This document shows, piece by piece, positions 3,007-30,800 of a stretch of 32,000 nucleotides of DNA. The notes below the pieces were generated by a model, which ran no database searches, was not told the origin of the DNA, and saw nothing but the letters and a program-made list of their open reading frames with translations. The translations under genes and the position numbers were made by a program. Source of the DNA: an uncultured Chloroflexia bacterium (lineage in GTDB: Bacteria > Chloroflexota > Anaerolineae > Anaerolineales > Anaerolineaceae); contig OY969938.1 of the NCBI GenBank assembly GCA_963704755.1, positions 3,540,001 through 3,572,000 on the forward strand, given 5' to 3'. Within the stretch, counting starts at the first letter, position 1. Every line of letters starts with the position of its first letter.

Positions 3007-3420
3007 CTACCATTCTTCTTGCGCTTCGATAAAAAATGGGTATACGATGCTGCGCTGGTCGTGCGAAGACTTGATCTGGTAGTCGATGTACACCAGCACG
3101 GCCCCATCGATATCGGGGTCGAACTCGGGCCGCACGTCCACGACCTGGATGCGCGGTTCCCAGCGCGCCAATGCTTTGGTGACCGAGGTGCGGATGCGGC
3201 CGGCCAGGACGGCGTCGCGCGGCTCGAAGACCAGGTCCTGGACCTCGCAGCCGAATTCCGGGCGCATGACCCGCTCGCCGATGCGGGTGCCCAGGATGAT
3301 GCCGATGGATTGTTCGATGTCTTTTTCGGCGCTGACCAGCTCGAAAGCACCCAGGGCGTTGACGCGGATGGGAAAATTGAGGCCGGAGCCGAGGAAGGCT
3401 GTGCGGGGGTTTTCGCTCAT
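3007..3420 (-). CDS. gp25/GPW baseplate wedge protein (Afp9/Cis9 position)
   Basis: 137 aa. IEQSIGIILGTRIGERVMRPEFGCEVQDLVFEP is the GPW_gp25 core motif (i.qSi..iL.T..GER.m.P.fG..l..l.F.p). Confidence 0.92.
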   Translation of the reverse strand: MSENPRTAFLGSGLNFPIRVNALGAFELVSAEKDIEQSIGIILGTRIGERVMRPEFGCEVQDLVFEPRDAVLAGRIRTSVTKALARWEPRIQVVDVRPEFDPDIDGAVLVYIDYQIKSSHDQRSIVYPFFIEAQEEW

Positions 3421-3756: not shown

Positions 3757-5658
3757 TTAGTTAATCTTGACCAGGCCGCCCTTGATTTCTGCGATGCCCT
3801 GGCCGTTGAGGGACAGCAGCGAGTTGGCCTTTACGTCCACTTTCATGCCGGCCACCTCGACGCCGGCCATTTTGATGGACACCTGGTTGCCGCCCGGGGC
3901 CTTGAGCACCACCTCTTTTTTAGAGTCGACCGTAAAGCCTTGCTGGAGGGAAAATTGGGCATTGGCTTTGGAATCAAAGGTCATGTCGCCCTGGCTCTTG
4001 ACGATAAATTTGCCGCCGGCTTCGATCACGAAATCCTTCTTGGATTTGAAGGTGATCGTGTCCTCCTTCGAGTCGATCACAATACTGTTCTGGCCGTCCT
4101 TGTCTTGAATGATGATCTGTTCTTTGTTTTCGGTGTCGTCCAGGATGACGGCGTGGCCGCTGCGCGAGCGGATGACGCGCTGGTTGACCTTGTTGTTTTC
4201 CTGCACCTTGGCGGATGTGCCCTTGGGCGGGGTGTCCTTCTTGTTCCACAATCCGCCGATAATGAAGGGGAAGTTGATGTCGCCGTGGTCGAAGGCCACC
4301 AAGACCTCGTCGTTGATCTCGGGGGTGAAGAAGATACCGCGGTCTTTGCCGCCGCCCAGGGTGGCCAGGCGGGCCCAGTTGCTGGAAAGCTCGCCGGCCT
4401 TGCCGCCGGGGGTCAGCCAGGGAAATTTGACTTTGATGCGCCCGAGGTTGTCCGGGTCGTTGATCTCGGTCACCAGACCGATGACCGCACCGCTAACTTT
4501 TTTGCTCTCGGGGGCGCGCCCGGCGTGCAGCAGGCTGTACAGGGTGTGCGGGCTGCTGCCGGAAAGGTCGAAATTGACGGTATACTGGCCGCGGCTGATG
4601 TGATGGCGGGCTTTGGTCACCGTGTAGGTGCCGGAAAAACGCTTGCCCACGTTGGCAATTTTGACCTGGCACCCGGCCAGCACGTTGGGGTTGCCGTCGG
4701 CCAGGTAGCCGCTGGCCTGGATAAAGTTGCTCTCGCGGGCGGAGAAATCGGCCCCGGCGATGGCCTTGAGCAGGTCCACGGTAAAGGCCGGCTGGTCCAC
4801 CACCACGTCTTCGGCGGCCCCAAAGGCTTTCTTGAGCGCGGCGCTGCCGGTATCGCTGATGCCGGTCTTGGGGGCATTGCTGGTCGCGGCGGAAGTGGCC
4901 TGGCCGACGAAGGCGGTCTTTTGATCCGGGTTCCAGCCATAGGCGGCCGTTTCGGAGACCTGGTTCATCAGGGATATGCGCGGCTCGAAGCTGGTCAGGT
5001 TGTTGCCCCACTCCAGGGTAACCGGCTGCCCGGTTTTGCGGGCTGTGTCGGCCTTCTGGAAGCAGAGAGTCTTATCGTCACAATAGACCTGGTACCCCAC
5101 CTGGCAGGCGCGCGACCAGAGGTAGTCCCAATCAGACTGGTTGTACTGCATCATGTAGGGATATTTAAGACTAGAAATGCCCGACGAATCGATCTTGGAG
5201 GAAAGCCCGGCGTCCTGGATGATTTTGGAGATGATCTGCTGCTCGGAGATCGAGCCGGGCTGCCCGTCCCCGAAGGTACGGGTCTTCTTGCCGCGGGTCA
5301 GGCGGTGCGATCGGTCGTATCCGCGCACGCGGAAAAGCGGTTTGCTGTCACGGCCGTAGACCGGTTCGACCGAAGTGATTTCGCCGGCAAACAACTGCCC
5401 CTTGATCTTTTCAGCGATACCGTCCCAATTGACCTCCATTGTAATTTCGACCGGCGCCCCGATTTTAAAGGTGTCGCTGTCGGCGTATTTCATGCTGTGG
5501 GTCTTCTCGTTCTCGTCATCCAGCAGAGTGACCGAGAACATGGCCGGCAGGAACGCATCGGTATCCACCACCAGCTCGACCAGGTCGTCCAGGTCCTGGT
5601 CCTTGATGGCGGTCCCGTTTACTTTCAGGGTTACGAGTGAATCCAGCTTGGTCGGCAT
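3757..5658 (-). CDS. VgrG-like spike (phage gpD + gp5/base_V OB-fold + C-terminal beta-helix; Afp8/Cis8 position)
   Basis: 633 aa. GRIKVKFPWLTPGGKAGELSSNWARLATLGGGKDRGIFFTPEINDEVLVAFDHGDINFPFIIGGLWN is the classic Phage_base_V/VgrG OB-fold motif. The N-terminal half is gpD-like and the C-terminus has repetitive beta-helix-like K/D/V-rich strands. Confidence 0.92.
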   Translation of the reverse strand: MPTKLDSLVTLKVNGTAIKDQDLDDLVELVVDTDAFLPAMFSVTLLDDENEKTHSMKYADSDTFKIGAPVEITMEVNWDGIAEKIKGQLFAGEITSVEPVYGRDSKPLFRVRGYDRSHRLTRGKKTRTFGDGQPGSISEQQIISKIIQDAGLSSKIDSSGISSLKYPYMMQYNQSDWDYLWSRACQVGYQVYCDDKTLCFQKADTARKTGQPVTLEWGNNLTSFEPRISLMNQVSETAAYGWNPDQKTAFVGQATSAATSNAPKTGISDTGSAALKKAFGAAEDVVVDQPAFTVDLLKAIAGADFSARESNFIQASGYLADGNPNVLAGCQVKIANVGKRFSGTYTVTKARHHISRGQYTVNFDLSGSSPHTLYSLLHAGRAPESKKVSGAVIGLVTEINDPDNLGRIKVKFPWLTPGGKAGELSSNWARLATLGGGKDRGIFFTPEINDEVLVAFDHGDINFPFIIGGLWNKKDTPPKGTSAKVQENNKVNQRVIRSRSGHAVILDDTENKEQIIIQDKDGQNSIVIDSKEDTITFKSKKDFVIEAGGKFIVKSQGDMTFDSKANAQFSLQQGFTVDSKKEVVLKAPGGNQVSIKMAGVEVAGMKVDVKANSLLSLNGQGIAEIKGGLVKIN

Positions 5659-8899: not shown

Positions 8900-9532
8900 C
8901 TAGAACAGCGCGGATGGGCTCATGGGTACGCCGGCGATTTTGCTGAGCGAGATGGTCTCGAAAGCGATTTCGATGCTCTCGATGGCGACCTGGTTGGTAT
9001 TGTTGACGTCCAGGGTGGAAAGCGACCAGCTAATCGGATAAGCGCCTTCGAAATCCCAGTTCTTGACGATGCCGGGCCCTTTCATGCCGACCACGCTGAG
9101 AGCGCTCATCCCGGGACCGCCCTGGATGATGCTCATGTTCTGGCGTTTGACCTTGGCGTCGTATAACCCTTCGCCGAACCAGTTCCACAACTCGCTGGAG
9201 ACCGAGAGCCCGCGTTTGAGGGTAATGTGGCCGGCTTTTACCCGGCCGGGCAGGGTATGGACGTGGTCGTTCAAGCCCCCCTCGGGCAGCTCTTCGACCT
9301 GGCGGTTGACGCCCAGTCCTTCGCAGGAGGTGAACAGGCCCACCACCAGCCCGGAAATGCTGACGTAAAACAAATATGCCGGAGCGGGGTCGAAGCGGAT
9401 GCCGATCAGCTTTTCCATCTCGCGGACGAGGGTGGTGCCTAACATGCCTTTGGCCTGGTTGAGGGCCTGGCCTAATTCATCGCCCCCCGCCAGAGGCCCG
9501 GGTAGTTTGGTAGGCCCGTTGATCACACTCAT
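8900..9532 (-). CDS. Tube-like protein, T4 gp19 family with ~50-aa N-terminal extension (Afp5/Cis5-like)
   Basis: 210 aa. YLFYVSISGLVVGLFTSCEGLGVNRQVEELPEGGLNDHVHTLPGRVKAGHITLKRGLSVSSELWNWF matches the gp19/TIGR02241 tube pattern (F.v.i.g...g.F..v.Gl......e..eGG.n...h.lPG.....itLkrG......l..W). Confidence 0.85.
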   Translation of the reverse strand: MSVINGPTKLPGPLAGGDELGQALNQAKGMLGTTLVREMEKLIGIRFDPAPAYLFYVSISGLVVGLFTSCEGLGVNRQVEELPEGGLNDHVHTLPGRVKAGHITLKRGLSVSSELWNWFGEGLYDAKVKRQNMSIIQGGPGMSALSVVGMKGPGIVKNWDFEGAYPISWSLSTLDVNNTNQVAIESIEIAFETISLSKIAGVPMSPSALF

Positions 9533-9705
9533 GGCATTCTTCCTTCGCGTTCGTTCTCAATTGACAATTCGTTTTTCATCATCTCGATAATTTTGTCCGC
9601 CAGTTGCTCCAATTCCAGATAACCCAAAAAAGCGCATCCGGCTTGCGATGGGCTTCTTTCCCCGGCGGGTTGTTTGGGTGAAAAGGACTGGTCGATGGTT
9701 GCCAT
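9529..9705 (-). CDS. 58-aa micro-ORF (below the ORF-track cutoff), unknown function
   Basis: My translation: MATIDQSFSPKQPAGERSPSQAGCAFLGYLELEQLADKIIEMMKNELSIENEREGRMP. An AGGA lies 7 nt upstream of ATG 9705. Its TGA overlaps the next gene's ATG (ATGA at 9529-9532), which implies translational coupling. The C-terminal helix motif is shared with the end of the Pro-rich protein. Confidence 0.6.
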   Translation of the reverse strand: MATIDQSFSPKQPAGERSPSQAGCAFLGYLELEQLADKIIEMMKNELSIENEREGRMP

Positions 9706-9716
9706 AAAATTCCTGT

Positions 9717-9884
9717 TCAGGCCTGGCCGATGCGCTTGTTAATATTCGCAATTTGTCGCACCCATTCCCGGCGGTTTTGGTGCGGCAAATTGTAGATCGT
9801 ATCCAGGTCCCAATGAAAATGGTAGGCGATGTAGGCTACCTCCTCATTAATCTGCTCGAGGGGGTAGCCTTTTATTCCCCCCCC
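9717..9884 (-). CDS. -1 frame extension of the chaperone gene (E-prime-like, DUF6760-like sequence), reachable by slippage on the G8 run
   Basis: The -1 frame reads GGG GGG GGA ATA AAA GGC TAC... = GGGIKGYPLEQINEEVAYIAYHFHWDLDTIYNLPHQNRREWVRQIANINKRIGQA*. The frame is closed by TAA at 9899-9897 just upstream. It has no ATG/GTG start, and the only in-frame TTG lies ~90 nt into the frame. The sequence looks protein-like and, from memory, resembles small conserved proteins of CIS loci. Confidence 0.55.
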   Translation of the reverse strand, partial: GGGIKGYPLEQINEEVAYIAYHFHWDLDTIYNLPHQNRREWVRQIANINKRIGQA

Positions 9885-10240
9885 AGTTTTGCAAGGTTAA
9901 TCTCCATTTCTTTGTTGCAATGGGGGCAGGTAATGACCCGTATTACCGAGGCATTCTCGTTAATTTGCTGGTAAAAGGCCTGCAAGAACGCGATATCGGA
10001 AGCAAACAGGTTTTCGATCACGTTGGTGGTAATGTGTTTCAGCGTTCCCAGGCTGGTAATGACCCGGGTCAGCAGGACGATCGAAAGGTAGGCCTCGTTG
10101 GTCTGCACGCGCATATCGTTGAGCGGCGTGATTTCGTCCATGGCGGTAGCCAGGCGCATGGTGCCTTGCTTGTGGAGCGTGCCTTCTTTGTCCACGTAGC
10201 CGATGGGCAGTTCAAAATCGAATTCGGTTTGAATGGTCAT
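9872..10240 (-). CDS. Tail assembly chaperone-like protein (P2 gpE-like), short form
   Basis: 122 aa. FELPIGYVDKEGTLHKQGTMRLATAMDEI resembles the gpE-type chaperone opening (short beta hairpin plus l.lR.pta.D). There is a CPHC pair near the end. The ORF ends ...AAA CTG GGG GGG GAA TAA, inside a G8 run. It sits after the tube genes, as in P2-type tails. Confidence 0.7.
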   Translation of the reverse strand: MTIQTEFDFELPIGYVDKEGTLHKQGTMRLATAMDEITPLNDMRVQTNEAYLSIVLLTRVITSLGTLKHITTNVIENLFASDIAFLQAFYQQINENASVIRVITCPHCNKEMEINLAKLGGE

Positions 10241-16961: not shown

Positions 16962-19900
16962 GTGTTAAAATATGGGGGATCTGCCGTTACCGGTTTCAAG
17001 TCCAACAAGGCCAGGGCGCTATTGGCTTACCTGGTGCTGGAACCCCAATTTGCCCATTCACGCAATTCCCTGGCCGGCCTGCTTTGGCCGGACCTGCCCA
17101 ACGAAGCGGCCAGCGCCAATTTACGCTCGGTACTGGCCAATTTACACAGGGTATTCGCAAATTACCTTGGCCCGGATATTTCGGTGCTCCGGGTGGATTA
17201 CAACGAGGTCCAGATCAACCGCGAAGAAATCCATTGCGACGTGATCGATTTCGAGGAGCGGGTCGAGCAAAACGATTTCAAGGCCGCGGCCGACCTGTAC
17301 CAGGGCCGCCTGTTGGACGGTTTCGCTTCTGGCAGTACGCCATTCGACGACTGGGTGCAGATCAAGACCGAGATTTTCCATCAAAAGGGCCTGTATGTGC
17401 TGCAAACTCTGTCCGATGAACTGCTGGACCAGGGCGACCTGGCCAACAGTATGGCCTACGCCAGGCGCGTGCTGGAATTAGAGCCCGGCCTGGAAGAGGC
17501 TCACCAGCAGATGATTTACCTGTTCGCGCTCAACGGCCAACGCAGCGCCGCCCTCTTGCAATTCGAACAGTGCAAACGCCTGCTGACCAAAGAACTTTCG
17601 GTAGCGCCGAGTGCCGAGACCCTGAAGCTGGTGGACAAAATTCGTACGGGCAGTATTTCTCAGCAAGGCGGCGTACGGGGCAAGCTCGAAGAAACGGACC
17701 GGGCAGCCCCGGAGCAGGCCAATAACGGGATCGTGGCCCGCGAGGTTGAACTGGCCTGGCTGGAAAACCGGCTCGAATCCGCGATCCAGGGGCAGGGCAA
17801 GGTGCTGTTTATCACCGGCGATTCGGGCAGCGGCAAAACCACCCTGGCAAAGGCTTTCGTTGCGCGGGCATTTACCCTCTCCGACAATATCATCGCCCTG
17901 AAAGGTACCTGTTCCATCCCCGGCGGGGTGGGCTCGCCCTACCAGCCTTTCCGCGAGATTTTGCTCAACCTGACCCGCCTGGAAGAACGTTTCTGGAACC
18001 TGGACGAATATCCCCAACAATTTGCCGGCCAGCTGATGGAAGCCCGCCGGATCGTTTTACGGTTTCTGGAACAGCAGTACCCGGATTTCAACGCGATGCT
18101 GCTTTCGCCCCCGGTGCCGCTGCCCAGCGGCACGGCGGATGGGCCGGATCCGTTTGCGGTTGCCCTCCAGACCGGCCGGCTGTTCGACCAATTTGTCCAG
18201 TTGTTTTCCAGGCTTTCTGACCATTACCCCTTGCTGTTCGTTCTGGATGATTTGCAGTGGGCCGATGAAGAATCGCTGCAACTGCTCTCTTATTTGGGCC
18301 GGCAATTGAACGGGCTGGCGGTGCTGCTGGTCGGGATTTACCGCACCGAGGAGGTCTCCGCCGGGCGGATGAACCGGCGCCATCCGATCGAGACGGTGGT
18401 GAATGAGCTCAAGCGCAATTACGGTGAGATCTGCCTGGACTTGAACAACACCGATGGCCGCAGTTTTGTCGGCGCCTACCTGAACAATTTCCCCAACCAG
18501 TTGGGGCAAAATTTTAGCGAGACGCTCTACCAGCATACCGGTGGGCACGCGCTGTTCACGGTTGAATTGATCGAGCAGCTCAAGCATTCCGGCGGCTTGG
18601 TCAAGAACGAGCGCGGATTGTGGATCGAAGGCGAAGACCTGGATTGGGACAAGCTGCCGGACCGGGTCGAATCGGTCGCAGCGGAGCGGGTCAATCGCCT
18701 GCCGCCGTTCTGGCAGACGGTGCTGAAAACGGCCAGCGTGGCGGGTGACCGCTTCATCGCCGAAGTGCTGGCGGATGTACTCAAAAAAGACGAGCGCATC
18801 ATCGTCCAGGGGTTGAGCCAGGTGGCTGCCCGGCAGCATGGCCTGGTGGTATCTTCGAGCACGCGGGTAGCCGGGGACCGGCGGTTGACCCTGTACCGCT
18901 TCCGCTACCATATATTTCAGCAATATTTATACAAAAGCCTGGACGCTGCCGAACTGGCTTTGCTGCACGGGCTGGTCGGCGATTTACTCGAGGCGCTCAC
19001 GGCCGACGGCGGCAGCGAGCCCGTCTCGCTGGCAGCCAACCTGGCCTGGCATTACGAAGAGGCCGGCAATTACAAGAAGGCTATTCATTACAACATCATG
19101 GCCGGCCGCGAAGCCAACCGCCTGGGGGCCATGAACAAGGCCGCCGGCCATTTCAATCACAGCCTGGACCTGCTCGAGAAGATCCCGGCGGATGGCGAGC
19201 ACATCAACCAGAAGCTGAGCGTGTTGAGCGAACTGGACCTGACCTACCTGGCCCTGTACGGTTGGGGCAGCCAGGAGCGCGGCGAGATCTTCGAGCGGGC
19301 CTACCGGCTATATGGCCAGCAGGGCGATATTTCGAAGCAGTTGCGCTGCCTGGGCGAGATAGCCAACAATGGCCTGGGCCGGCGGGACTACGAGAAGACC
19401 ATCGAGCGCTGCCAGAGTCTGCTGCAGCAGTCGCTGAAATTGGGCAACCCCAGCTTCACCATGCTGGCCAAGAAAATCATGGGGGAATGTTACAGCTTCA
19501 GCGGCAAATTGACCTTGGGGCGGCGCTATCTTAAGGAAATTTTGCCTTATCTGATTGAATGCCCGCAGGACCCGGCTTTTCAGTATCAGGGCGGCGATGA
19601 TCGCACATCCCGGATTTACCTGTGCTACAACCTGCTGATCTCCGGGTATCCCGACCAGTCCAGGCGCTGTTTGCAGGAGAACCTGGCCCTGCTGGAAAAG
19701 GTGCCCCAGCCTTTCGTGCGGGGTTTTTGCCTGACCCTCAATGGCATCGACCAGAGCATCATCCTGCACGATGAAGAGGCGGTCTCGAACTACGCCGGGC
19801 AGTTATATGAACTGACCCAACAGGGCGAATATACCGTTTTTCAACCTTGGGTCAGGTTTGCCGAGGTGTGGAAACACGCCAGCGCCAGTTTGGACCGGGA

Positions 19901-20387
19901 TCACCTGGATGCGTTGTGGGCCTGGGTGAACACCTACCTGCCGCACGCCAGCACGACCGGATTCCTCTTCTCGTTTTGTGCGCTGGCCGGCCTGCTAATC
20001 GACGCCGGCAATGTCGCTGAAAGCCAAAAGATCATCGACCTGATTTTGAAAAGCGTCGAGGGCCTCTCGACGAGCTCGCTCTGGCCGCTCGTTCTACGCC
20101 TGAAAGGCGAACACTGCCAGTTGAGCGGGAAACTTGATGAAGCCGAAAAGTGCTTCTTGCAATCGATCCAGGTTGCCCAGGAGCAGGAGGCCAAATTGTG
20201 GGAGTTGACCGCGGTGACCAACCTGTACAAGCTGAAACAGCAGCAAGGCAAAGAGGCGGTGGTACTGCCGATGCTTTCCCGTGTTTATGCCTGGTTTAGT
20301 GAGGGCCTGGACACGGCCCCGCTCAAGACTGCCCGGGATTTGCTGGAAGAATACGAGGCTATTCCTGGCCCTGGCGTTGCCCGTTAG
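16962..20387 (+). CDS. SARP-family (winged-helix + BTAD) / P-loop NTPase / TPR large transcriptional regulator
   Basis: 1141 aa from GTG 16962. The winged-helix and BTAD region reads TGFKSNKARALLAYLVLEP...LAGLLWPD...ANLRSVLANLHRV....DVIDFEE......AAADLYQGRLLDGF....FDDWV...LELEPGLEEAHQQMIYLFALNGQRSAALLQFEQCKRLLTKELSVAPSAET. Walker A is ITGDSGSGKTTLA and Walker B is LLFVLDDLQWADEESL. The C-terminal third is TPR-like. The first ~15 codons of the domain appear to sit in another frame (see findings). Confidence 0.9.
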   Translation: MLKYGGSAVTGFKSNKARALLAYLVLEPQFAHSRNSLAGLLWPDLPNEAASANLRSVLANLHRVFANYLGPDISVLRVDYNEVQINREEIHCDVIDFEERVEQNDFKAAADLYQGRLLDGFASGSTPFDDWVQIKTEIFHQKGLYVLQTLSDELLDQGDLANSMAYARRVLELEPGLEEAHQQMIYLFALNGQRSAALLQFEQCKRLLTKELSVAPSAETLKLVDKIRTGSISQQGGVRGKLEETDRAAPEQANNGIVAREVELAWLENRLESAIQGQGKVLFITGDSGSGKTTLAKAFVARAFTLSDNIIALKGTCSIPGGVGSPYQPFREILLNLTRLEERFWNLDEYPQQFAGQLMEARRIVLRFLEQQYPDFNAMLLSPPVPLPSGTADGPDPFAVALQTGRLFDQFVQLFSRLSDHYPLLFVLDDLQWADEESLQLLSYLGRQLNGLAVLLVGIYRTEEVSAGRMNRRHPIETVVNELKRNYGEICLDLNNTDGRSFVGAYLNNFPNQLGQNFSETLYQHTGGHALFTVELIEQLKHSGGLVKNERGLWIEGEDLDWDKLPDRVESVAAERVNRLPPFWQTVLKTASVAGDRFIAEVLADVLKKDERIIVQGLSQVAARQHGLVVSSSTRVAGDRRLTLYRFRYHIFQQYLYKSLDAAELALLHGLVGDLLEALTADGGSEPVSLAANLAWHYEEAGNYKKAIHYNIMAGREANRLGAMNKAAGHFNHSLDLLEKIPADGEHINQKLSVLSELDLTYLALYGWGSQERGEIFERAYRLYGQQGDISKQLRCLGEIANNGLGRRDYEKTIERCQSLLQQSLKLGNPSFTMLAKKIMGECYSFSGKLTLGRRYLKEILPYLIECPQDPAFQYQGGDDRTSRIYLCYNLLISGYPDQSRRCLQENLALLEKVPQPFVRGFCLTLNGIDQSIILHDEEAVSNYAGQLYELTQQGEYTVFQPWVRFAEVWKHASASLDRDHLDALWAWVNTYLPHASTTGFLFSFCALAGLLIDAGNVAESQKIIDLILKSVEGLSTSSLWPLVLRLKGEHCQLSGKLDEAEKCFLQSIQVAQEQEAKLWELTAVTNLYKLKQQQGKEAVVLPMLSRVYAWFSEGLDTAPLKTARDLLEEYEAIPGPGVAR

Positions 20388-24976: not shown

Positions 24977-27829
24977 TCACCGTATAACCAGCGGCAAATC
25001 GACCAGATGGTACGTTGTGGTGTCCATGTGGAGGAAAGTTGCCGGGTCGCCAAGCAAGGAAAAAGTATCCAGGGCATCCAGGCCCTGGTCGGTTTGGTTG
25101 GCCAGGTTGAGTTTACCTGCCAGGGTGGCTGCGCCGATGGAAACATCGGCGCCGGGATCCAGCAGGGCCAAAAAACCATTGGCCAGCAGGTCTTGAGAGG
25201 AAGAATAACCGAAGCCGGTCGAGCCCCACACGGCGATGGCGCCGCCGTTGGGCTGGCGCAGCAGGCTTTCGTCCAGGGTGGGCAAATTGGGCACCTGGAA
25301 TGAGCCGGTCAGGCAGGTCATCTCGAGTAAAACGGGCAGGCGCGGCGCGTTGGTCAGGCCGGAGACGTCATCCAGGTGGAAGAAACGCTCGACGCCCCAT
25401 TGGTGGATCGACGAATGCCCGTGATAGACCATAATCTCGTCGCCGTCCTGCCACTGGTTGAACACGGCCTGGCGGAAGGCGGCGTCATCGTTCTGGGCCG
25501 GGTTGTAATACAGCTTGCGTGCGATCTGAGGTGGCTGGGTCAGTTCCTGGATCCAGGCGTTGGCAGTGGCCTGAAAATTGCTGGTGCTGTCGGCCGTATC
25601 GGCCACGAAAGCCATGGTCTGGCGCCACAAGCCAGGGGTGGGGGTCTGATCGTATTGGACCAGTTTTTGGACCACCGCGGCCAGTTCGGCTGTCGAGTTG
25701 ACCGGCAGTCGCCCGAGCAGATAGTCGGGCAGGTCGTCCGCGCCATCGACCGTCACGTACTGGTTATCGGCGGCGGTTTCCCCGGCCAGCGGATCCACAT
25801 CCGCCAGGTAGGGCGGGATATAGGTTGCACTCGAGCTGGACAGGTAATGCTTGGGGTCGGCCGTGCCATCCCCGACCAGAAGGATGTAGTCCGGCCGGGG
25901 GCTCCAGGTGGTGTAAATCGAAGCCAGGTAGGCGCGGATCGCGTCCGCGGTGGGACGGCCGTCGTACCAGTCGTAAATCCCCTGGACGTCCTGGACGGCC
26001 ACGCTCAGCCCCTGGGAGCGGCGCAGGTTGACCAGGCTGCTCAAGCCGGAGATGAAGGCCTGCGGGGCGATGATCAATTCGTTCGCGCCGCTGGCGGTTT
26101 GCAGCGCGGTGGTCATGCGCACCCTGGCCGGGGCCAGCAGCCCGGAAGCGTTGGAGAGGCTGTAACTGTGGGCGCTTTCCGCGCCGGCCGGGTCGCCAAA
26201 CTGGACGGTATTGCCGTTGGTGACCATATTTTCCAACTGCCTGGGCTGGTCGGGGTCGGTCACGTCGTAGGCGAGCAGGCCGGTCAGGTTCGAAAGCCCG
26301 ATCGTATAGCGCTCTCCGCCGGTATCCTCCCCGCGGACCTGGGCCTGCTGCCCGACTGCACCGGTGGTGCGGACGTAATCCAGCGCAAAGGCGTCCAACC
26401 ACAGCCCTTCCACCGTGATGCCGGGCAAGGAGGGCAGGGTCAGCTTCAGGCTGTTGGCGCCTGTCTTGAGCACATTGGCCGGGATGGCCAGGGTCGTCGC
26501 GGCGGCCTGTTTGCCGTCGAAGGTCAGCGAGCCCAGGCTGGTGCCGTTGACAGCGGCCTGGATGCGATGGTCGTTCGCGGCGGCTACATCCGTGTAGCCG
26601 ATGACCCACAAGGTCAATTGGGCTGCACTGGTGGTATCCGGGTCGGTCAGGTTGAAGGTGTAGGTCGCCGAAGTGCGGTCTGGAAAGCGCAGGTCGTCCC
26701 ATACCCAGCGGTCGCCGTCCCGGCCGGCCGGGATAGGCGCGCAGTTGCAATCCGGGGTGTACAGGTTGTTTTGTTCGAAGGTTTGCTGCACGTGCGCCTG
26801 GCCCTGGGTAAGCCCGCTCGGGTCGCCATCCTGGGTGGGGATGAGCTCGGACGGATCGGCCGAAAAGCTCAGAAAATACACATCCGTGCTGGTGTAGCGG
26901 CTGAAGCGTGGGGCCGCATAGAACAAGAAGTATTCGTTGCTTTCGAAGGTAGTGTTGTCGTTGCCCTGCCACTGGATGGGGATTTCGACACCGGCACGGG
27001 TCAGGTGCAGGTCGTGCGGATCGACCTGGCCGACCGGGAAACCGGCGCTTTGCAGTTCGGCGTAGGTCACGGCCGTGATCCCGATCTGCGAGACCTCGAT
27101 GGCAGCCCGCGGGCTGCCGCCGGACCCCTGGATGGCTGCCGTTTGCGGGGCGGTTTCGGCCGGCGTCACCTGGGCCTGCTGGGGGTTGAGCAATTCGGCC
27201 CGCACGGTATCGACCAGCGGGTCGGAATTACCCTGGATATCCACCCTGGGCGACTCCACCTGGAAGTTGATGCTGGCCTGGATATGGGTCACGGCCACCA
27301 ACCCGCCGGCGCTGATGCGCAGCGGGTAAAGGGTCAACTGGGCCAGGTCCAGGCCGGCTACCCGTCCCAGGTACTTGATCTGCACTGGGTCGGGCGAAAA
27401 ATCGTCTTGATAGGGTTGGGCGGGCGGGGTGGTTTCGCTGCCATCCGGGTTGAGGGCAGGCTGCTGGTCAGCGGCCACCCAGGCGCCATCGGGCAGGGAC
27501 AGGTTTTGTTCGTCCAGGCCGGTCACCACCACCTCAGGTTCGGCGCCGGGAGGCAAAGCCACCAGCTTGCGGCAGACCGGCAGGGCCGGCTGGCCGGGCT
27601 CGTCCAGGGGCACGCAGCCGTCCAGGCTCAAGGTAGCTGCCCCATCCGGGCCGGCCTGGATGGTCGGCGTGTCGAACAGCCAGTCCAGGTCCAATCCATC
27701 CGGCCGCAGGGTGACCTGCAAGCCAGGATCCGGGCCGGCCGTTGCCGGGGACGGCCTCGGGCCGGCACCGATGGCGCTGCTCAGCCCGAGGACTACCCCA
27801 AAAAAAATTCGCATGGCGCGCAGGCTCAT
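24977..27829 (-). CDS. Secreted peptidase C25 (gingipain-like) family protein
   Basis: 950 aa. The signal peptide is MRIFFGVVLGLSSAIGA. The C25 core reads ELIIAPQAF...YILLVGDGTADPK...GRLPVNS. The catalytic His is in IMVYHGHSS and the Cys in LLEMTCLTGSF, about 40 aa apart. Its ATG overlaps the upstream stop (ATGA at 27826-27829). Confidence 0.88.
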   Translation of the reverse strand: MSLRAMRIFFGVVLGLSSAIGAGPRPSPATAGPDPGLQVTLRPDGLDLDWLFDTPTIQAGPDGAATLSLDGCVPLDEPGQPALPVCRKLVALPPGAEPEVVVTGLDEQNLSLPDGAWVAADQQPALNPDGSETTPPAQPYQDDFSPDPVQIKYLGRVAGLDLAQLTLYPLRISAGGLVAVTHIQASINFQVESPRVDIQGNSDPLVDTVRAELLNPQQAQVTPAETAPQTAAIQGSGGSPRAAIEVSQIGITAVTYAELQSAGFPVGQVDPHDLHLTRAGVEIPIQWQGNDNTTFESNEYFLFYAAPRFSRYTSTDVYFLSFSADPSELIPTQDGDPSGLTQGQAHVQQTFEQNNLYTPDCNCAPIPAGRDGDRWVWDDLRFPDRTSATYTFNLTDPDTTSAAQLTLWVIGYTDVAAANDHRIQAAVNGTSLGSLTFDGKQAAATTLAIPANVLKTGANSLKLTLPSLPGITVEGLWLDAFALDYVRTTGAVGQQAQVRGEDTGGERYTIGLSNLTGLLAYDVTDPDQPRQLENMVTNGNTVQFGDPAGAESAHSYSLSNASGLLAPARVRMTTALQTASGANELIIAPQAFISGLSSLVNLRRSQGLSVAVQDVQGIYDWYDGRPTADAIRAYLASIYTTWSPRPDYILLVGDGTADPKHYLSSSSATYIPPYLADVDPLAGETAADNQYVTVDGADDLPDYLLGRLPVNSTAELAAVVQKLVQYDQTPTPGLWRQTMAFVADTADSTSNFQATANAWIQELTQPPQIARKLYYNPAQNDDAAFRQAVFNQWQDGDEIMVYHGHSSIHQWGVERFFHLDDVSGLTNAPRLPVLLEMTCLTGSFQVPNLPTLDESLLRQPNGGAIAVWGSTGFGYSSSQDLLANGFLALLDPGADVSIGAATLAGKLNLANQTDQGLDALDTFSLLGDPATFLHMDTTTYHLVDLPLVIR

Positions 27830-30800
27830 CGCACCACAAACGGCAGGTAGAGATGGTAATCGCCCGGTATTTCGCCCAGGATGGCCGAGATTGGATACAG
27901 CGAATGCGGGGTTGCCACGCCGTGGGTATCCACGTCTTCCAGCCAGTAGTACCAGATGCCCGTTCCAGGGGGTGTGTCGGTGTACTGGTAGCTGGCGCCG
28001 TTGTTTTCAGAGCCGGTGGCTTCGGAGGGCACGTAAGTAAGCTGCTCGGCCTGGGAGAAGTCATTGACCGGGGCGCGGTAGAGGTAAAAGCCAACGTTAT
28101 CGATCTCGGTGGCCGTTGCCCAGGTTACCAGGATGTCGGTGTCATTCGACTGGGCTGTGGCTTTGAAGTAAAGCAAAGTGACCGCGGTGGGGTTGGAGAT
28201 GGCCGTATCGGTTGGATCGGAAGGTGTGCTCGTGCCCGGGTCGTCGGTAACACCATCGATCATGTTGGTCGCACTGAGTACGGCCTGGTTGGCAATGGTA
28301 GTGACTCCCGCCGGGAGGGGTGCATCGTGGATGCGCACCACGTAGGTGATGGTCGCCGTCGCGCTGGGGTCGAAGTCGCCCAGGTCGATTTGGACGCTAC
28401 TGTCTCCGGAGGTGTTGCCTTGCAGAATGGTGCCCACGTCGCTGGTGACGGTGCCGGCCTGCAGGTCGGTGTTCGGGTCGGGGGTGTCGTCCACCACCAG
28501 GCTCAGGGCGCTGATCGTGCCGGAGTTGGTCATGTGAATGGTGTACAACACGCTGTCGCCGGGGTTGATCAGGCCATTGTGGTCGGCATCGTTGCTCAAC
28601 ATGACCGACTTGGTGGCCACGATTTGTGGCGCACCGACCGGCGTGATGGTCGGGTCATCCGGGGTGATGGTGCCGGGGTCATCGGTAGTCAGCGGGGCGA
28701 AGTTATCGCCGCTGACCTGGCCCTGGTTGCTCACCTGGGTCAAACCGGCTGCCAGCGGGCTTTCGATCTGCACCTGGAAGGTCAGGGTGTAATCTCCGCC
28801 GAGGGCCGTGATGGAGGGAATATCCACTTCGACGGTGGTATCGCCCGAGGTATTGCCCACGGCCACCGTGCCGCCGGTGTCCGCGCTGACCGAGCCTGCC
28901 ACCAGGGTAGTGTGCTCGTCCGGCTGGTCGCTGAAGACGACGTTGGCCGCATCGGCCGAACCGGCATTGTGGATCGCGATGGTGTATTCGAGAATGTCAC
29001 CCGGGCCGATCAAGCCGTCGCCGTCCTGGTCGATCAGGGTAGCCGTCTTGGTAGCAGAGATGACCGGGGCCTGTTCGATAGTTACATCGGAGGTACTGGT
29101 GTTGTTGCTCCCATCCGGGTCGCTGGTGCTCGCGGAGACCGTCGCGGTGTTACTCAAGGTACCGTAGAACTCGGGGTGCACCATGACCACCAGGGTAACG
29201 CTGGTTTCATCCCCGGAGGCCAGGCTGCTGGAAAGGGTGCAGTTGACGGTCTCGCTGCTGTCCGGGTTGACCGTGTCGCCACAGGTCCAGCCGGTGCCGC
29301 TGGCCGAGATGTAACTGACATCGGTTGGCAAGGGGTCGCTGAGCTGCACGTCCTGGGCATCGGATGGGCCGTTGTTGTCCACCGTGAGGGTGTAGGTGAG
29401 CGGCTGGCCGGGGAGATAGCTGCTGAGGCCGTCCGTATCGGTTTTGGTCACGACCAGGTCGGCTTGTGGATCGGCCGCATCGCTATCCTCGGCGGTGGCA
29501 TCCGCGCTGATCGGGGAGGTCAGCGTGGCCGTGTTGACCAGGTTGCCGCCCTTGTCGGCCCCAATCGTGGGGGAGGTCACGGTGTAGGTGAGCGAGGATC
29601 CGGCCGGCAAATTGACCGTATCGGTGAAGGAATTAGCCGTGCCGGCGTCGCAACCACTGGCGCCGCCGGTGGCATCGCTGCAGGCCCAGCTCCAGGAATC
29701 CAACTGAGCAGGTTTGCTGTCGGTCAGGGTAGCAGCCGGCACATCGGATGGGCCGGCGTTGCTGAGCACGACCGTGTAGGTCAACTGCGTCTGGCCGGGG
29801 ATGTAGCTGGTCAGGCCATCGGTTTTACTCACGCTCAACACCGCATAGGACCCGGCGCTATCCGTGTCGGTCGCGGAGTTGTTGCTCGTGTCGGTTTCTG
29901 CTTCACCGGTGCCGCGGGTCACCGTGACTGTGTTGGTCAGTTCCGAAGTGAGCGAGGAATCGGTCTTGGCAGCCACTGTGTAGGTGATCGACGCACCGGC
30001 CGGCAGGCTGACCGTATCGTTGAAGTCGTCGCTCGAGTTTACATAGCCGGTATTGTCGCAGTCGCTGGCTCCGTCCGCCTCGCTGCAGGTCCAGGTCCAG
30101 GAGGTCACCTGGGCCGGTTTGGCGTCCGCAACGACCGCACCGACCGAATCGGAGGGGCCGGCGTTGGCGACCACGATGGTGTAGGTTACCGTCGCGCCGG
30201 GAGCATAGCTGTCCGAGTGGTCGTCTTTGGACACACTCAAGGCGACTGTCGGATTGGCCGTATCGGTGTCGCTGATGTCGGTGTTGTTGGTCGAATCCGG
30301 GTCGCTGATGCCTGCCGGAGCGCTGGCCGTCGCGCTGGCCGTGTTGACCAGGTCTCCGCTGGCGTTCGAGCGCGGGGTAGCGTTGATCGTATAGGTCACC
30401 GAACTGCCGTTGGGCATGGCCAGCGTCTGGGAAATAGCGCTGCTGCCGCTGCCATCCGCACAGCCGGTCGCCCCGGACGCAACGCAGGTCCAGGACCAGG
30501 TGTCGAACTGGGCCGGCAGCGGGTCGCTGAAGTCCACCGCGGCGGCATCCGAGGGGCCATCGTTGCTGACCACAACCGTGTAGGTCAACGGCGTACCGGG
30601 GATGTAGCTGTCCAGGCCATCCGTCTTGGTCACAACGATATCCGCCTGGCTAGCACTGGAATCGCTATCGGTCACGGTGTTTGCCTTGACGCCGGGATCG
30701 GTTACCCCGGCGGGTGGGGTGATGGTGGCCGTATTGACCAGGCTGCCGGTCTTGTCCGAGGCGATCGTCGGGCTGGTGACCGTGTAGGTGATCGAAGAGC

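What the first reader, a model, noticed from the sequence alone, without database searches (positions are those of the whole stretch)
9717..10240. Apparent programmed -1 frameshift on a G8 run in the tail-assembly-chaperone gene, giving two nested products
**What the sequence shows.** The 122-aa gpE-like ORF ends ...AAA CTG GGG GGG GAA TAA, with the G8 run at 9884-9877. Slipping back one base on G GGG GGG opens a 53-codon frame: GIKGYPLEQINEEVAYIAYHFHWDLDTIYNLPHQNRREWVRQIANINKRIGQA*. This looks like a real conserved small protein. The frame is closed by TAA only 13 nt upstream of the run, and it has no ATG or GTG start.

**Context.** A short product plus a frameshift-extended product, made just upstream of the tape measure, is the conserved tail-chaperone strategy of lambda G/GT and P2 E/E+E'. 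I am not aware of it being part of the standard eCIS gene model.

**Alternatives.** The extension could initiate independently at the ATA codon that occupies the position of a start (giving MKGYPLEQ... if decoded as Met). The polymerase could slip on the G run during transcription. Or the G run could be a homopolymer miscall.
Basis: partly seen in the sequence, partly recalled or inferred. Interest (0 to 1): 0.72.

Follow-up and report, generated by a model that had tools for sequence, protein, structure and literature searches.

The report
Frameshifted tail-assembly chaperone in an eCIS
A phage-tail-like injection-system gene cluster carries an assembly-chaperone gene that almost certainly makes a short and a longer protein by programmed ribosome slippage on a run of Gs, a trick well known in phages but not described or annotated for these systems.

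Summary
On the minus strand, a 122-aa ORF (10240-9872) ends CTG GGG GGG GAA TAA. The -1 frame then runs 53 codons to a TGA at 9719-9717, has no usable start codon, and encodes Pfam DUF6760 (E=1.6e-12).

Evidence for programmed -1 ribosomal frameshifting, from 80 orthologous loci in different Chloroflexota species:
- 79 loci (80 of 81 with the window) keep DUF6760 in the -1 frame.
- The G-run always starts at codon position 3, giving a G GGG GGN heptamer.
- The two glycine codons are GGG in 63/63 and 78/79 cases, against 19% GGG elsewhere in the same genes.
- 22 of the 80 informative loci have no canonical or near-cognate start codon.
- A hairpin with 11 base pairs lies exactly 8 or 5 nt downstream and shows compensatory changes.

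More distant relatives keep the layout with other heptamers (U UUA AAU, U UUU UUA). One lineage encodes the short and long forms as two separate genes.

ORF1 is a tail assembly chaperone by profile (PHROG 508, E=9e-8) and by fold (T4 gp51-like, Mu FS-gp41).

It is a new member of a known kind. The "just upstream of the tape measure" context is not verified.

The parts
9872..10240 (-). ORF1, the short product: 122-aa tail assembly chaperone, with its TAA stop at 9874-9872
   Evidence: translation; the fused query finds 1,133 homologues; the listed top hits are ~122-123 aa, cover only the ORF1 part and end in LGGE or similar, and some are named 'phage tail assembly protein'. PHROG 508 'tail assembly chaperone', E=8.8e-8. 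AF2 model pLDDT 84; fold matches to phage BCD7 J9PUD8 (9e-8), T4-like baseplate hub assembly protein (5e-6) and Mu FS-gp41 (3.6e-3).
9878..9884 (-). Slippery heptamer G GGG GGG in X XXY YYZ phase. The first G is the third base of Leu119 CTG. The eighth G (9877) begins the next codon, GAA.
   Evidence: the run starts at codon position 3 in 80/80 loci; lengths are G8 in 58, G7 in 11, G6 in 7 and G5 in 4. GGG in 63/63 and 78/79 at the two Gly codons against 19% elsewhere; third-position entropy about 0 bits; all 77 Leu codons at position 119 end in G.
9870..9877 (-). 8-nt spacer (GAAUAAAA) that contains the ORF1 stop codon
   Evidence: the spacer is exactly 8 nt in 57 loci and 5 nt in 23. The ORF1 stop begins 0, 3 or 6 nt after the heptamer in all 80.
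9834..9869 (-). Downstream stem-loop, a candidate frameshift stimulator: 5' arm GGCUACCCCCUC (9869-9858), 12-nt loop (9857-9846), 3' arm GAGGAGGUAGCC (9845-9834); 11 pairs and one C.A mismatch
   Evidence: the MFE fold contains it, -29.6 kcal/mol, z=-3.77, 0/200 shuffles as stable; 96.6% of cells paired against 31-63% when slid; 28 double-change cells against 7.2 +/- 2.1 in shuffles (0/500). RNAalifold predicts most of the same stem (10 of the 11 pairs); synonymous sites of both arms are nearly invariant.
9717..9878 (-). -1 frame extension: 53 codons plus TGA, the DUF6760 domain. The long product is 10240-9878 joined to 9878-9720 (174 aa).
   Evidence: PF20546 E=1.6e-12, 47.8 bits (cut-off 27); in the -1 frame in 80 of 81 loci; low-confidence model with a disordered junction followed by three helices.
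9529..9705 (-). Conserved 58-aa ORF immediately downstream. It is context only, not part of the recoding unit, and is a candidate Cis6-like spike plug.
   Evidence: orthologues in most loci carry the C-terminal motif DLxxLAxxIxxLLKxELxxExERxGR; no significant PDB or Pfam match; the motif is shared with the C-terminus of the 838-aa ORF.

Best explanation
This is a programmed -1 ribosomal frameshift site in the tail-assembly-chaperone gene of an extracellular contractile injection system (eCIS).

Most ribosomes translate ORF1 to its TAA and release the 122-aa chaperone. A fraction pause with Gly-tRNAs on G GGG GGG (9884-9878), held 8 nt upstream of a stable hairpin (9869-9834). They slip back one base and continue in the -1 frame. 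The result is a 174-aa long form in which the chaperone carries a C-terminal DUF6760 domain of about 50 aa.

Shown here:
- the two-frame anatomy;
- the frozen in-phase heptamer;
- the fixed spacer;
- the covarying hairpin;
- the absence of any start codon in many species;
- replacement by other canonical heptamers in distant relatives;
- a lineage with separate short-form and long-form genes;
- chaperone homology of ORF1.

Inferred:
- that slippage actually happens, and at what rate;
- that, by analogy with lambda gpG/gpGT, P2 E/E+E' and Mu gp41/FS-gp41 (Xu, Hendrix and Duda 2004; my own knowledge), the shared chaperone domain holds the tape-measure-like protein while the DUF6760 extension docks it to tube or hub subunits;
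- that both forms are needed for assembly and are absent from the finished particle.
For: 1. The -1 frame encodes a curated domain, DUF6760, at E=1.6e-12, and it has no start codon.
2. 80 of 81 loci from different species keep DUF6760 in the -1 frame. The run always begins at codon position 3.
3. Synonymous freezing: GGG in 63/63 and 78/79 against 19% at other Gly codons of the same genes, including five other conserved Gly columns at 11-28%.
4. The hairpin: z=-3.77; 96.6% paired; 28 compensatory cells against 7.2 +/- 2.1 (0/500 shuffles); pairs 33-58 (CG 66, UA 7, UG 4) and 39-52 (CG 39, GC 18). RNAalifold agrees.
5. The spacer is exactly 8 or 5 nt, and the hairpin is kept in every start-codon class.
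6. 22 of 80 loci have neither a canonical nor a near-cognate start codon.
7. Across species the codon at the 'start' position reads mostly Ile, Met, Val or Leu, which fits a sense codon. ATG appears when the ORF1 stop is TGA rather than TAA.
8. Distant relatives keep the layout with other heptamers: CC U UUA AAU (L091, DUF6760 1e-10), AAU UUU UUA (L086/L087) and G GGG GGA (L090, 4e-17).
9. L081 has a 108-aa ORF1-only gene followed by a 159-aa in-frame ORF1-DUF6760 gene.
10. Myophages BCD7 and L087 have sheath, tube, this chaperone, the -1 DUF6760-like extension, then a tape measure (L087) or a very large unannotated ORF (BCD7).
11. ORF1 hits PHROG 508 at E=8.8e-8. Its fold matches include Mu FS-gp41.
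Against: - There is no experimental evidence (protein, Ribo-seq or reporter), so the efficiency is unknown.
- G GGG GGG is not among the best-studied bacterial heptamers.
- Four loci have only G5, where tandem slippage is not possible.
- 19 of 80 loci have an ATG, TTG or GTG overlapping the ORF1 stop. The G-run could act as a Shine-Dalgarno-like element, so a free 52-aa DUF6760 could be made there. Gene callers do call such proteins.
- The hairpin arms encode conserved residues (GYP and EEVA), so part of the pairing conservation reflects protein constraint. Several compensatory cells may descend from a few events.
- Some lineages lack DUF6760 altogether (L092, L093).
- In phage pSt2308 the extension lies in the +1 frame.
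Confidence: 0.8

Rival explanations
1. DUF6760 is translated on its own. Ribosomes terminating at the ORF1 stop, or binding the G-rich run as a Shine-Dalgarno-like element, would initiate at the codon that overlaps the stop (ATA here; ATG, TTG or GTG in some species). That would give a free protein of about 52 aa and no fusion.
For: - 19 of 80 loci have ATG, TTG or GTG exactly at this position, as an A-TG-A overlap.
- L091 has an in-frame TTG preceded by AAGGA.
- Databases hold 15 called 51-68-aa DUF6760 proteins; 14 of them begin M/V-x-G-Y.
- The Pfam profile starts only about 5 residues upstream of the match.
Against: - 22 of 80 loci have no canonical or near-cognate start at all, with codons such as GTC, GTA, CTA, TTA or ACT.
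- The window itself has ATA, a very poor initiator.
- The heptamer's phase and its GGG codons would not need conservation to serve as a Shine-Dalgarno element.
- A stable hairpin starting 5-8 nt from the site would occlude an initiation region.
- Natural in-frame fusions exist: P0158 in L081, and apparently P0196 and P0221, which were read only as protein sequences.
- ATG tracks the TGA-versus-TAA choice of the ORF1 stop.
Confidence: 0.08
2. Transcriptional slippage. RNA polymerase stutters on the C8 template run and adds one G to a fraction of the mRNAs (G9). Those transcripts encode the fusion in a single frame.
For: A homopolymer of 8 is present in 58 of 80 loci. A G9 transcript would give exactly the same long product. 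This is not excluded as a minor contributor.
Against: - Slippage by the polymerase does not depend on reading phase, yet the run starts at codon position 3 in 80/80 loci.
- Runs of G5-G7 are kept in 22 loci.
- Relatives use U UUA AAU, which is not a homopolymer, and U6.
- A conserved hairpin downstream of the run cannot act on a polymerase that has not yet transcribed it, but its distance fits a ribosome.
- From my own knowledge, known bacterial slippage sites are mostly A/T runs of 9 or more.
Confidence: 0.07
3. Artefact or DNA-level variation. The true sequence would be G9 (one continuous ORF), or the run would be a phase-variable tract or the gene a decaying pseudogene.
For: Homopolymers are error-prone. 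One locus, L016 (from its MFD isolate name probably a long-read MAG), has G7 where close relatives have G8, which puts DUF6760 in the +1 frame. P0021 is a 176-aa 'fusion' from a 706-bp contig.
Against: - 79 independent assemblies from different species and platforms, plus the window, agree on the -1 layout.
- ORF1 homologues almost always end at the same LGGE-type stop.
- Both frames are under strong purifying selection.
- The upstream part of P0021 looks frameshifted, so it is itself an error.
Confidence: 0.03

Closest known systems
Phage tail assembly chaperone frameshift: lambda gpG/gpGT, P2 gpE/gpE+E', Mu gp41/FS-gp41 (Xu, Hendrix and Duda, Mol Cell 2004, listed in the references of PMC9024508; the content is my own knowledge)
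   Same: - A short chaperone and a C-terminally extended long form come from one gene by -1 slippage on an in-phase X XXY YYZ heptamer near the end of the first ORF.
- The second ORF has no start codon.
- The gene follows the tube gene(s).
- The layout is conserved while the slippery sequence changes between lineages.
- The sizes (122 + 53 aa) are, from memory, close to those of P2 E/E+E'.
- The ORF1 fold matches Mu FS-gp41.
   Different: - The host element is an eCIS cluster (eCIS_core, Pvc16 cap, AAA ATPase), not a phage or an R-type tailocin.
- The heptamer is all-G and is backed by a strongly conserved hairpin.
- The extension is DUF6760, not the lambda T domain or the P2 E' family.
- The gene is not directly adjacent to a recognisable tape measure.
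- There is no sequence hit to P2 gpE families.
T4 gp51-type 'baseplate hub assembly' proteins (Pfam T4_baseplate PF12322, PHROG 150) and Bacillus phage BCD7 gp BCD7_0090
   Same: - These are the best fold matches to ORF1.
- L087 and BCD7 proteins of this type sit between the tube gene and a tape measure (L087) or a very large unannotated ORF (BCD7), and carry a -1 DUF6760-like extension.
   Different: - They are tandem duplications of about 250-270 aa, whereas the window's ORF1 is a single 122-aa module.
- Window ORF1 hits PF12322 only weakly (best E=0.058 in 3 of 12 members).
- Slippage is not annotated in BCD7.
Canonical eCIS gene model (Afp/PVC, tCIS, AlgoCIS: Cis1-Cis16)
   Same: The cluster has sheath, tube, Cis5-like, LysM/CIS_tube, VgrG, gp25, Baseplate J, Pvc16 cap, AAA ATPase and eCIS_core proteins.
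   Different: The model lists no tail assembly chaperone and no recoded gene. The small protein it does list, Cis6, is a spike plug (PMC8894136, PMC12546770). No paper in the library mentions DUF6760 or links CIS with a chaperone frameshift.
dnaX-type bacterial -1 frameshift signals
   Same: An in-phase heptamer is followed by a stable stem-loop after a short spacer, and the 0-frame stop lies within a few codons (my own knowledge).
   Different: No conserved upstream Shine-Dalgarno-like stimulator was seen. The heptamer is G-only rather than A AAA AAG. Here the shift extends the protein, whereas in dnaX it truncates it.

Membership tests
Tail assembly chaperone with programmed -1 frameshift (G/GT, E/E+E', gp41/FS-gp41 class) | Two overlapping ORFs, with the second in the -1 frame and lacking its own start codon | tested here: met
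   80 of 81 loci have the -1 layout. 61 of 80 have no canonical start and 22 of 80 have not even a near-cognate one.
Tail assembly chaperone with programmed -1 frameshift (G/GT, E/E+E', gp41/FS-gp41 class) | X XXY YYZ slippery heptamer in the 0-frame phase near the end of ORF1 | tested here: met
   G GGG GGG at 9884-9878. The phase is conserved in 80/80 loci and 76/80 have G6 or longer. The codons are frozen at synonymous sites.
Tail assembly chaperone with programmed -1 frameshift (G/GT, E/E+E', gp41/FS-gp41 class) | Layout conserved among relatives even where the slippery sequence differs | tested here: met
   U UUA AAU in L091, U UUU UUA in L086/L087 and G GGG GGA in L090. One exception has the extension in the +1 frame (pSt2308).
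Tail assembly chaperone with programmed -1 frameshift (G/GT, E/E+E', gp41/FS-gp41 class) | Position between the tube gene and the tape measure gene | tested here: inconclusive
   The gene directly follows two tube genes. Two genes then intervene, and the 838-aa ORF has no tape-measure signature. In the phage-like relative L087 the tape measure is adjacent; in phage BCD7 a very large unannotated ORF is adjacent.
Tail assembly chaperone with programmed -1 frameshift (G/GT, E/E+E', gp41/FS-gp41 class) | ORF1 homologous to known tail assembly chaperones | tested here: met
   PHROG 508 E=8.8e-8. Weak Gp41_Mu hits in 7 of 12 members. Foldseek: BCD7 9e-8, T4-like hub assembly protein 5e-6, Mu FS-gp41 3.6e-3. 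The top PDB hit is the HK97 chaperone, but at E=0.21.
Tail assembly chaperone with programmed -1 frameshift (G/GT, E/E+E', gp41/FS-gp41 class) | Both products made in vivo at a fixed ratio, both needed for assembly, neither present in the particle | not testable with these tools
   This needs proteomics, reporters and genetics. The two-gene arrangement in L081 is indirect support that both forms are needed.
Pfam DUF6760 (PF20546) | Score above the curated gathering threshold | tested here: met
   47.8 bits against 27, E=1.6e-12, profile positions 6-51 of 89.
Extracellular contractile injection system (eCIS) | Co-located sheath, tube, VgrG spike, gp25, Baseplate J, Pvc16-type cap, AAA+ ATPase and eCIS_core/DUF4157 protein | tested here: met
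   All are found between 752 and 22509, and all lie on the minus strand.
Cis6/Afp6/Pvc6 spike plug (considered for DUF6760) | Sequence similarity to the Cis6/Pvc6/Alg6 chains of solved CIS particles | tested here: not met
   No PDB chain matches the DUF6760 part or the fused-product profile at E<=10 apart from designed coiled coils. The downstream 58-aa ORF fits the Cis6 description better, but that too is unproven.
Transcriptional slippage site | A long homopolymer whose effect does not depend on reading phase or on downstream structure | tested here: not met
   The phase is fixed in 80/80 loci, runs are as short as G5-G6, relatives have non-homopolymeric heptamers, and a conserved hairpin lies downstream.
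   No such Pfam or NCBIfam hit even at E<=5. The resemblance is functional and architectural only.

The most novel reading that the evidence does not exclude
DUF6760 is the general 'long-form' domain of a single chaperone superfamily. That superfamily would unite eCIS ORF1, T4 gp51-type 'baseplate hub assembly catalysts' and Mu gp41. On this reading, a large branch of eCIS, together with several myophages annotated without it, depends on an unannotated recoded gene for tube or hub assembly. In species with an A-TG-A overlap, the same site may also release free DUF6760 by termination-reinitiation, which would make it a three-output device.
Probability: 0.35. Interest if true: 0.6.

Novelty: new member of a known kind. 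Interest (0 to 1): 0.5.

Why it matters
1. It gives DUF6760 a concrete role as the frameshift-encoded C-terminal extension of a contractile-system assembly chaperone.
2. It exposes a systematic annotation gap. The fused query found 1,133 proteins, with the listed top hits almost all ORF1-only, while the DUF6760 query found only 15 called proteins. Part of that gap reflects the short query. Phage BCD7 carries no slippage annotation.
3. It adds a chaperone pair to the gene model of a large eCIS branch. This matters for anyone who expresses or re-engineers these particles heterologously. A synthetic, codon-optimised or 'cleaned-up' cluster would destroy the heptamer and hairpin and so lose the long form.
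4. The heptamer, fixed spacer and covarying hairpin form a compact, well-defined bacterial -1 frameshift signal from Chloroflexota that can be tested directly.

Tried and rejected
- **Sequence searches against solved structures.** ORF1, DUF6760, the fused-product profile and the 58-aa ORF family gave nothing meaningful.
- **tblastn of the window's fused protein against annotated phages.** No match. Only the more distant L087 query reached phages.
- **AF2 of the fused product.** Low confidence (pLDDT 61), so it was not used for fold search.
- **Rfam.** No family covers the region.
- **Source genome.** The look-up found no record.
- **DUF6760 as the Cis6 spike plug.** Considered and rejected for lack of any similarity. 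The neighbouring 58-aa ORF fits that description better.
- **The 3' hairpin arm GAGGAGGU as a functional Shine-Dalgarno sequence for an internal start.** Rejected because no start codon follows at a suitable distance.
- **P0021, P0141, P0184 and P0229 as natural fusions.** Rejected because their upstream parts look frameshifted or error-laden.
- **Literature.** Eight full-text searches found no description of this feature in CIS.
Full report
**1. The observation**

On the minus strand, a 122-aa ORF (10240-9872) ends AAA CTG GGG GGG GAA TAA. The G8 run lies at 9884-9877.

Reading from the seventh G in the -1 frame gives GIKGYPLEQINEEVAYIAYHFHWDLDTIYNLPHQNRREWVRQIANINKRIGQA, followed by TGA at 9719-9717. 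It has no ATG, GTG or TTG until well inside the domain, and the ORF listing reports no ORF there.

The -1 peptide is a real protein domain. It matches Pfam DUF6760 at 47.8 bits against a cut-off of 27, E=1.6e-12.

The run by itself is not improbable. Shuffles of the window contain 7.4 +/- 3.4 G8 runs and the window contains one. An in-phase heptamer plus a long open -1 frame occurs at 3 of 76 mechanical ORF ends in this GC-rich window. The case therefore rests on the evidence that follows.

**2. Context**

The window is an eCIS-type cluster. All the genes below lie on the minus strand:

| Coordinates | Gene product |
|---|---|
| 22509-20359 | AAA+ ATPase with winged-helix domain |
| 16704-14047 | eCIS_core protein |
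| 14029-13205 | Pvc16 cap |
| 12890-11250 | sheath |
| 11234-10791 and 10731-10252 | two tube proteins |
| 10240-9872 | ORF1 |
| 9878-9717 | DUF6760 (-1 frame) |
| 9705-9529 | 58-aa ORF |
| 9532-8900 | Cis5-like tube protein |
| 8897-6381 | 838-aa ORF |
| 6360-5662 | CIS_tube + LysM |
| 5658-3757 | VgrG |
| 3420-3007 | gp25 |
| 2854-752 | Baseplate J |

**3. Comparative test**

ORF1 belongs to a large family. The fused query found 1,133 homologues, and the listed top hits are about 122-123 aa, cover only the ORF1 part and usually end in LGGE or LGGES. A genome scan returned 80 loci from different Chloroflexota species.

- **Frame.** In 80 of 81 loci, counting the window, DUF6760 lies in the -1 frame relative to ORF1. 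The exception is L016, whose MFD isolate name suggests a long-read MAG. It has G7 where its close relatives have G8, so it is probably a homopolymer miscall.
- **Phase and length.** The run begins at codon position 3 in all 80 informative loci, giving G GGG GGN. Run lengths are G8 in 58, G7 in 11, G6 in 7 and G5 in 4.
- **Codon usage.** The two Gly codons are GGG in 63/63 and 78/79 sequences. GGG is only 19% of Gly codons elsewhere in the same genes, and 11-28% at five other conserved Gly columns. All 77 Leu codons at the preceding position end in G. Third-position entropy there is about 0 bits, against 1.5-1.9 at comparable sites.
- **Start codons.** Between the run and the domain, 19 loci have ATG, TTG or GTG overlapping the ORF1 stop. 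Another 39 have only ATA, ATC, ATT or CTG. The remaining 22 have none.
- **The codon at the 'start' position.** Across species it encodes mostly Ile, Met, Val or Leu, and ATG appears when the ORF1 stop is TGA rather than TAA. This looks like a conserved hydrophobic sense codon rather than an initiator.

**4. A downstream RNA element**

The same entropy scan showed a second stretch of frozen synonymous sites, at GGC TAC CCN (aa 125-127) and at GAG GAG GTA GCC (aa 133-136). These two segments are complementary. GGCUACCCCCUC (9869-9858) pairs with GAGGAGGUAGCC (9845-9834) around a 12-nt loop.

- The window's MFE fold contains this hairpin: -29.6 kcal/mol, z=-3.77, and 0 of 200 shuffles are as stable.
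- On 77 distinct sequences, 96.6% of cells form standard pairs, against 31-63% when the partner is slid by 1-3 columns.
- 28 cells carry changes on both sides, against 7.2 +/- 2.1 in shuffles (0 of 500).
- Pair 39-52 alternates between C-G (39 sequences) and G-C (18). Pair 33-58 alternates between C-G (66) and U-A (7). Pair 28-63 shows one G-C to A-U change.
- RNAalifold predicts most of the same stem, 10 of the 11 pairs.
- The spacer from heptamer to stem is exactly 8 nt in 57 loci and 5 nt in 23. The hairpin is kept whether or not a start codon is present. The ORF1 stop lies 0, 3 or 6 nt after the heptamer.
- No Rfam family covers the element.

Two caveats apply. The arms encode conserved residues, and several compensatory cells probably descend from a few events. 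I count at least four independent ones.

**5. Wider relatives**

- **L090** (63% GC) has G GGG GGA with a -1 DUF6760 (E=4e-17).
- **L091** (35% GC) has CC U UUA AAU in phase with a -1 DUF6760 (E=1e-10). An in-frame TTG is also available there.
- **L086 and L087**, two viral-collection contigs, have GCA AAU UUU UUA UAA with a -1 DUF6760-like extension (E=1.4e-3). Their gene order is sheath, tube, chaperone, extension, tape measure (PhageMin_Tail).
- **Bacillus phage BCD7** has the order sheath, tube, tube, BCD7_0090, then a very large ORF. BCD7_0090 ends CTG GGG GAG TAA and has a -1 DUF6760-like extension (E=1e-4). No slippage is annotated.
- **L081**, from another eCIS lineage, has a 108-aa ORF1-only gene immediately followed by a 159-aa gene in which an ORF1 paralogue is fused in frame to DUF6760. 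The short and long forms are thus encoded separately.
- **L092 and L093** lack DUF6760.
- **Streptomyces phage pSt2308** has the extension in the +1 frame.

**6. What ORF1 is**

- There is no Pfam or NCBIfam hit at the default threshold.
- ORF1 matches PHROG 508 'tail assembly chaperone' at E=8.8e-8.
- Weak Gp41_Mu hits occur in 7 of 12 family members.
- A confident AF2 model (pLDDT 84, pTM 0.71) matches BCD7 J9PUD8 (9e-8), 'Baseplate hub assembly protein, bacteriophage T4-like' (5e-6) and Mu 'Probable tail assembly protein FS-gp41' (3.6e-3, probability 1.0).
- The top PDB hit is the HK97 tail assembly chaperone, but it is not significant (E=0.21).
- 'gpE-like' in the strict sense is not supported by sequence.

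**7. Mechanism**

The best-supported reading is programmed -1 ribosomal frameshifting, at confidence about 0.8. It would work by tandem slippage of Gly-tRNAs on G GGG GGG, stimulated by the hairpin 8 nt downstream. The products would be the 122-aa chaperone and a 174-aa chaperone-DUF6760 long form.

The functional split is inferred by analogy with lambda gpG/gpGT, from my own knowledge: the common domain would hold the tape-measure-like protein and the extension would dock to tube or hub subunits.

The rivals rank as follows:
- **Independent or coupled initiation (0.08).** This may coexist with frameshifting in the 19 loci that have a start codon.
- **Transcriptional slippage (0.07).** It is disfavoured by the fixed phase, the short runs, the non-homopolymeric heptamers in relatives and the downstream hairpin.
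- **Sequencing artefact or phase variation (0.03).** It is disfavoured by 79 concordant assemblies.

**8. Novelty**

The chaperone frameshift is a textbook feature of long-tailed phages (Xu et al. 2004). It is not part of the published eCIS gene model, whose small protein Cis6 is a spike plug (PMC8894136, PMC12546770, PMC12210884).

No paper in the library mentions DUF6760 or links CIS with a chaperone frameshift.

I classify this as a new member of a known kind. Its practical consequences are for annotation and for engineering eCIS.

Noticed in passing
window 9529-9705 (-): A conserved 58-aa ORF lies right after DUF6760. It has a variable low-complexity N-terminus and a conserved C-terminal helix, DLxxLAxxIxxLLKxELxxExERxGR, and is present in most of the 80 loci. 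Its size and helix position resemble the published description of the Cis6/Pvc6 spike plug. Only weak DUF5908 hits were found, and there is no PDB match.
   Followed up: partly
It has about 9 repeats of a [TAL][VI]QR[EKMQT] motif and no family hit. Its C-terminal helix (LDLDQIASQVYPILLRKLEIEKERS) matches the profile of the 58-aa ORF family (hhalign probability 93%, E=2.9e-7). These are the only two proteins in the window with this motif.
   Followed up: partly
L081 5668-6480: Another eCIS lineage encodes an ORF1-only protein (108 aa, no zinc ribbon) and, immediately after it, an in-frame ORF1-DUF6760 fusion (159 aa). This is a two-gene equivalent of the frameshift.
   Followed up: yes
L089 (Bacillus phage BCD7, JN712910) 3926-4880: BCD7_0090 is annotated 'hypothetical protein'. 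It is a tandem chaperone of the T4 gp51 type whose -1 frame encodes a DUF6760-like extension that ends just before the very large downstream ORF (probably the tape measure). No ribosomal slippage is annotated.
   Followed up: partly
L094 (Streptomyces phage pSt2308) ~3150-3420: Here the DUF6760-like extension (..YLVTYSEYEQLVDAYKWSLTEIRKLTFRERKHWL..) lies in the +1 frame of the chaperone gene, and no obvious slippery site is present. It may be a +1/-2 shift or an independent GTG start.
   Followed up: no
L016 ~3345-3400: This is the only locus with DUF6760 in the +1 frame. It has G7 instead of G8, and its MFD isolate name suggests a long-read MAG. It is probably a homopolymer miscall, which shows how easily this site is mis-assembled. 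A real phase variant is not excluded.
   Followed up: partly
window 9834-9845 (-): The 3' arm of the hairpin, GAGGAGGU, is a perfect Shine-Dalgarno-like sequence and is nearly invariant across 77 sequences. No start codon follows it. Whether it has a second role, such as ribosome pausing, is unknown.
   Followed up: no
P0121, P0122, P0127, P0128 (representative search): Many relatives are tandem duplications of the ORF1 module (244-252 aa). This is the same architecture as the phage gp51-like proteins, which suggests repeated duplication and fission in this chaperone family.
   Followed up: no
L092 226-827: In a 47%-GC lineage, ORF1 is followed directly by the Cis6-like small ORF and no DUF6760 frame is present. 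The long form is therefore not universal.
   Followed up: no
window 16962-20387 (+), 24977-27829 (-), 27826-31980 (-): Next to the cluster lie a divergently oriented BTAD/AAA_16/TPR (STAND-type) regulator, a 950-aa C25 peptidase and a 1384-aa protein with nine DUF11 repeats. They are possible regulator and cargo or surface components. They were not examined further.
   Followed up: no
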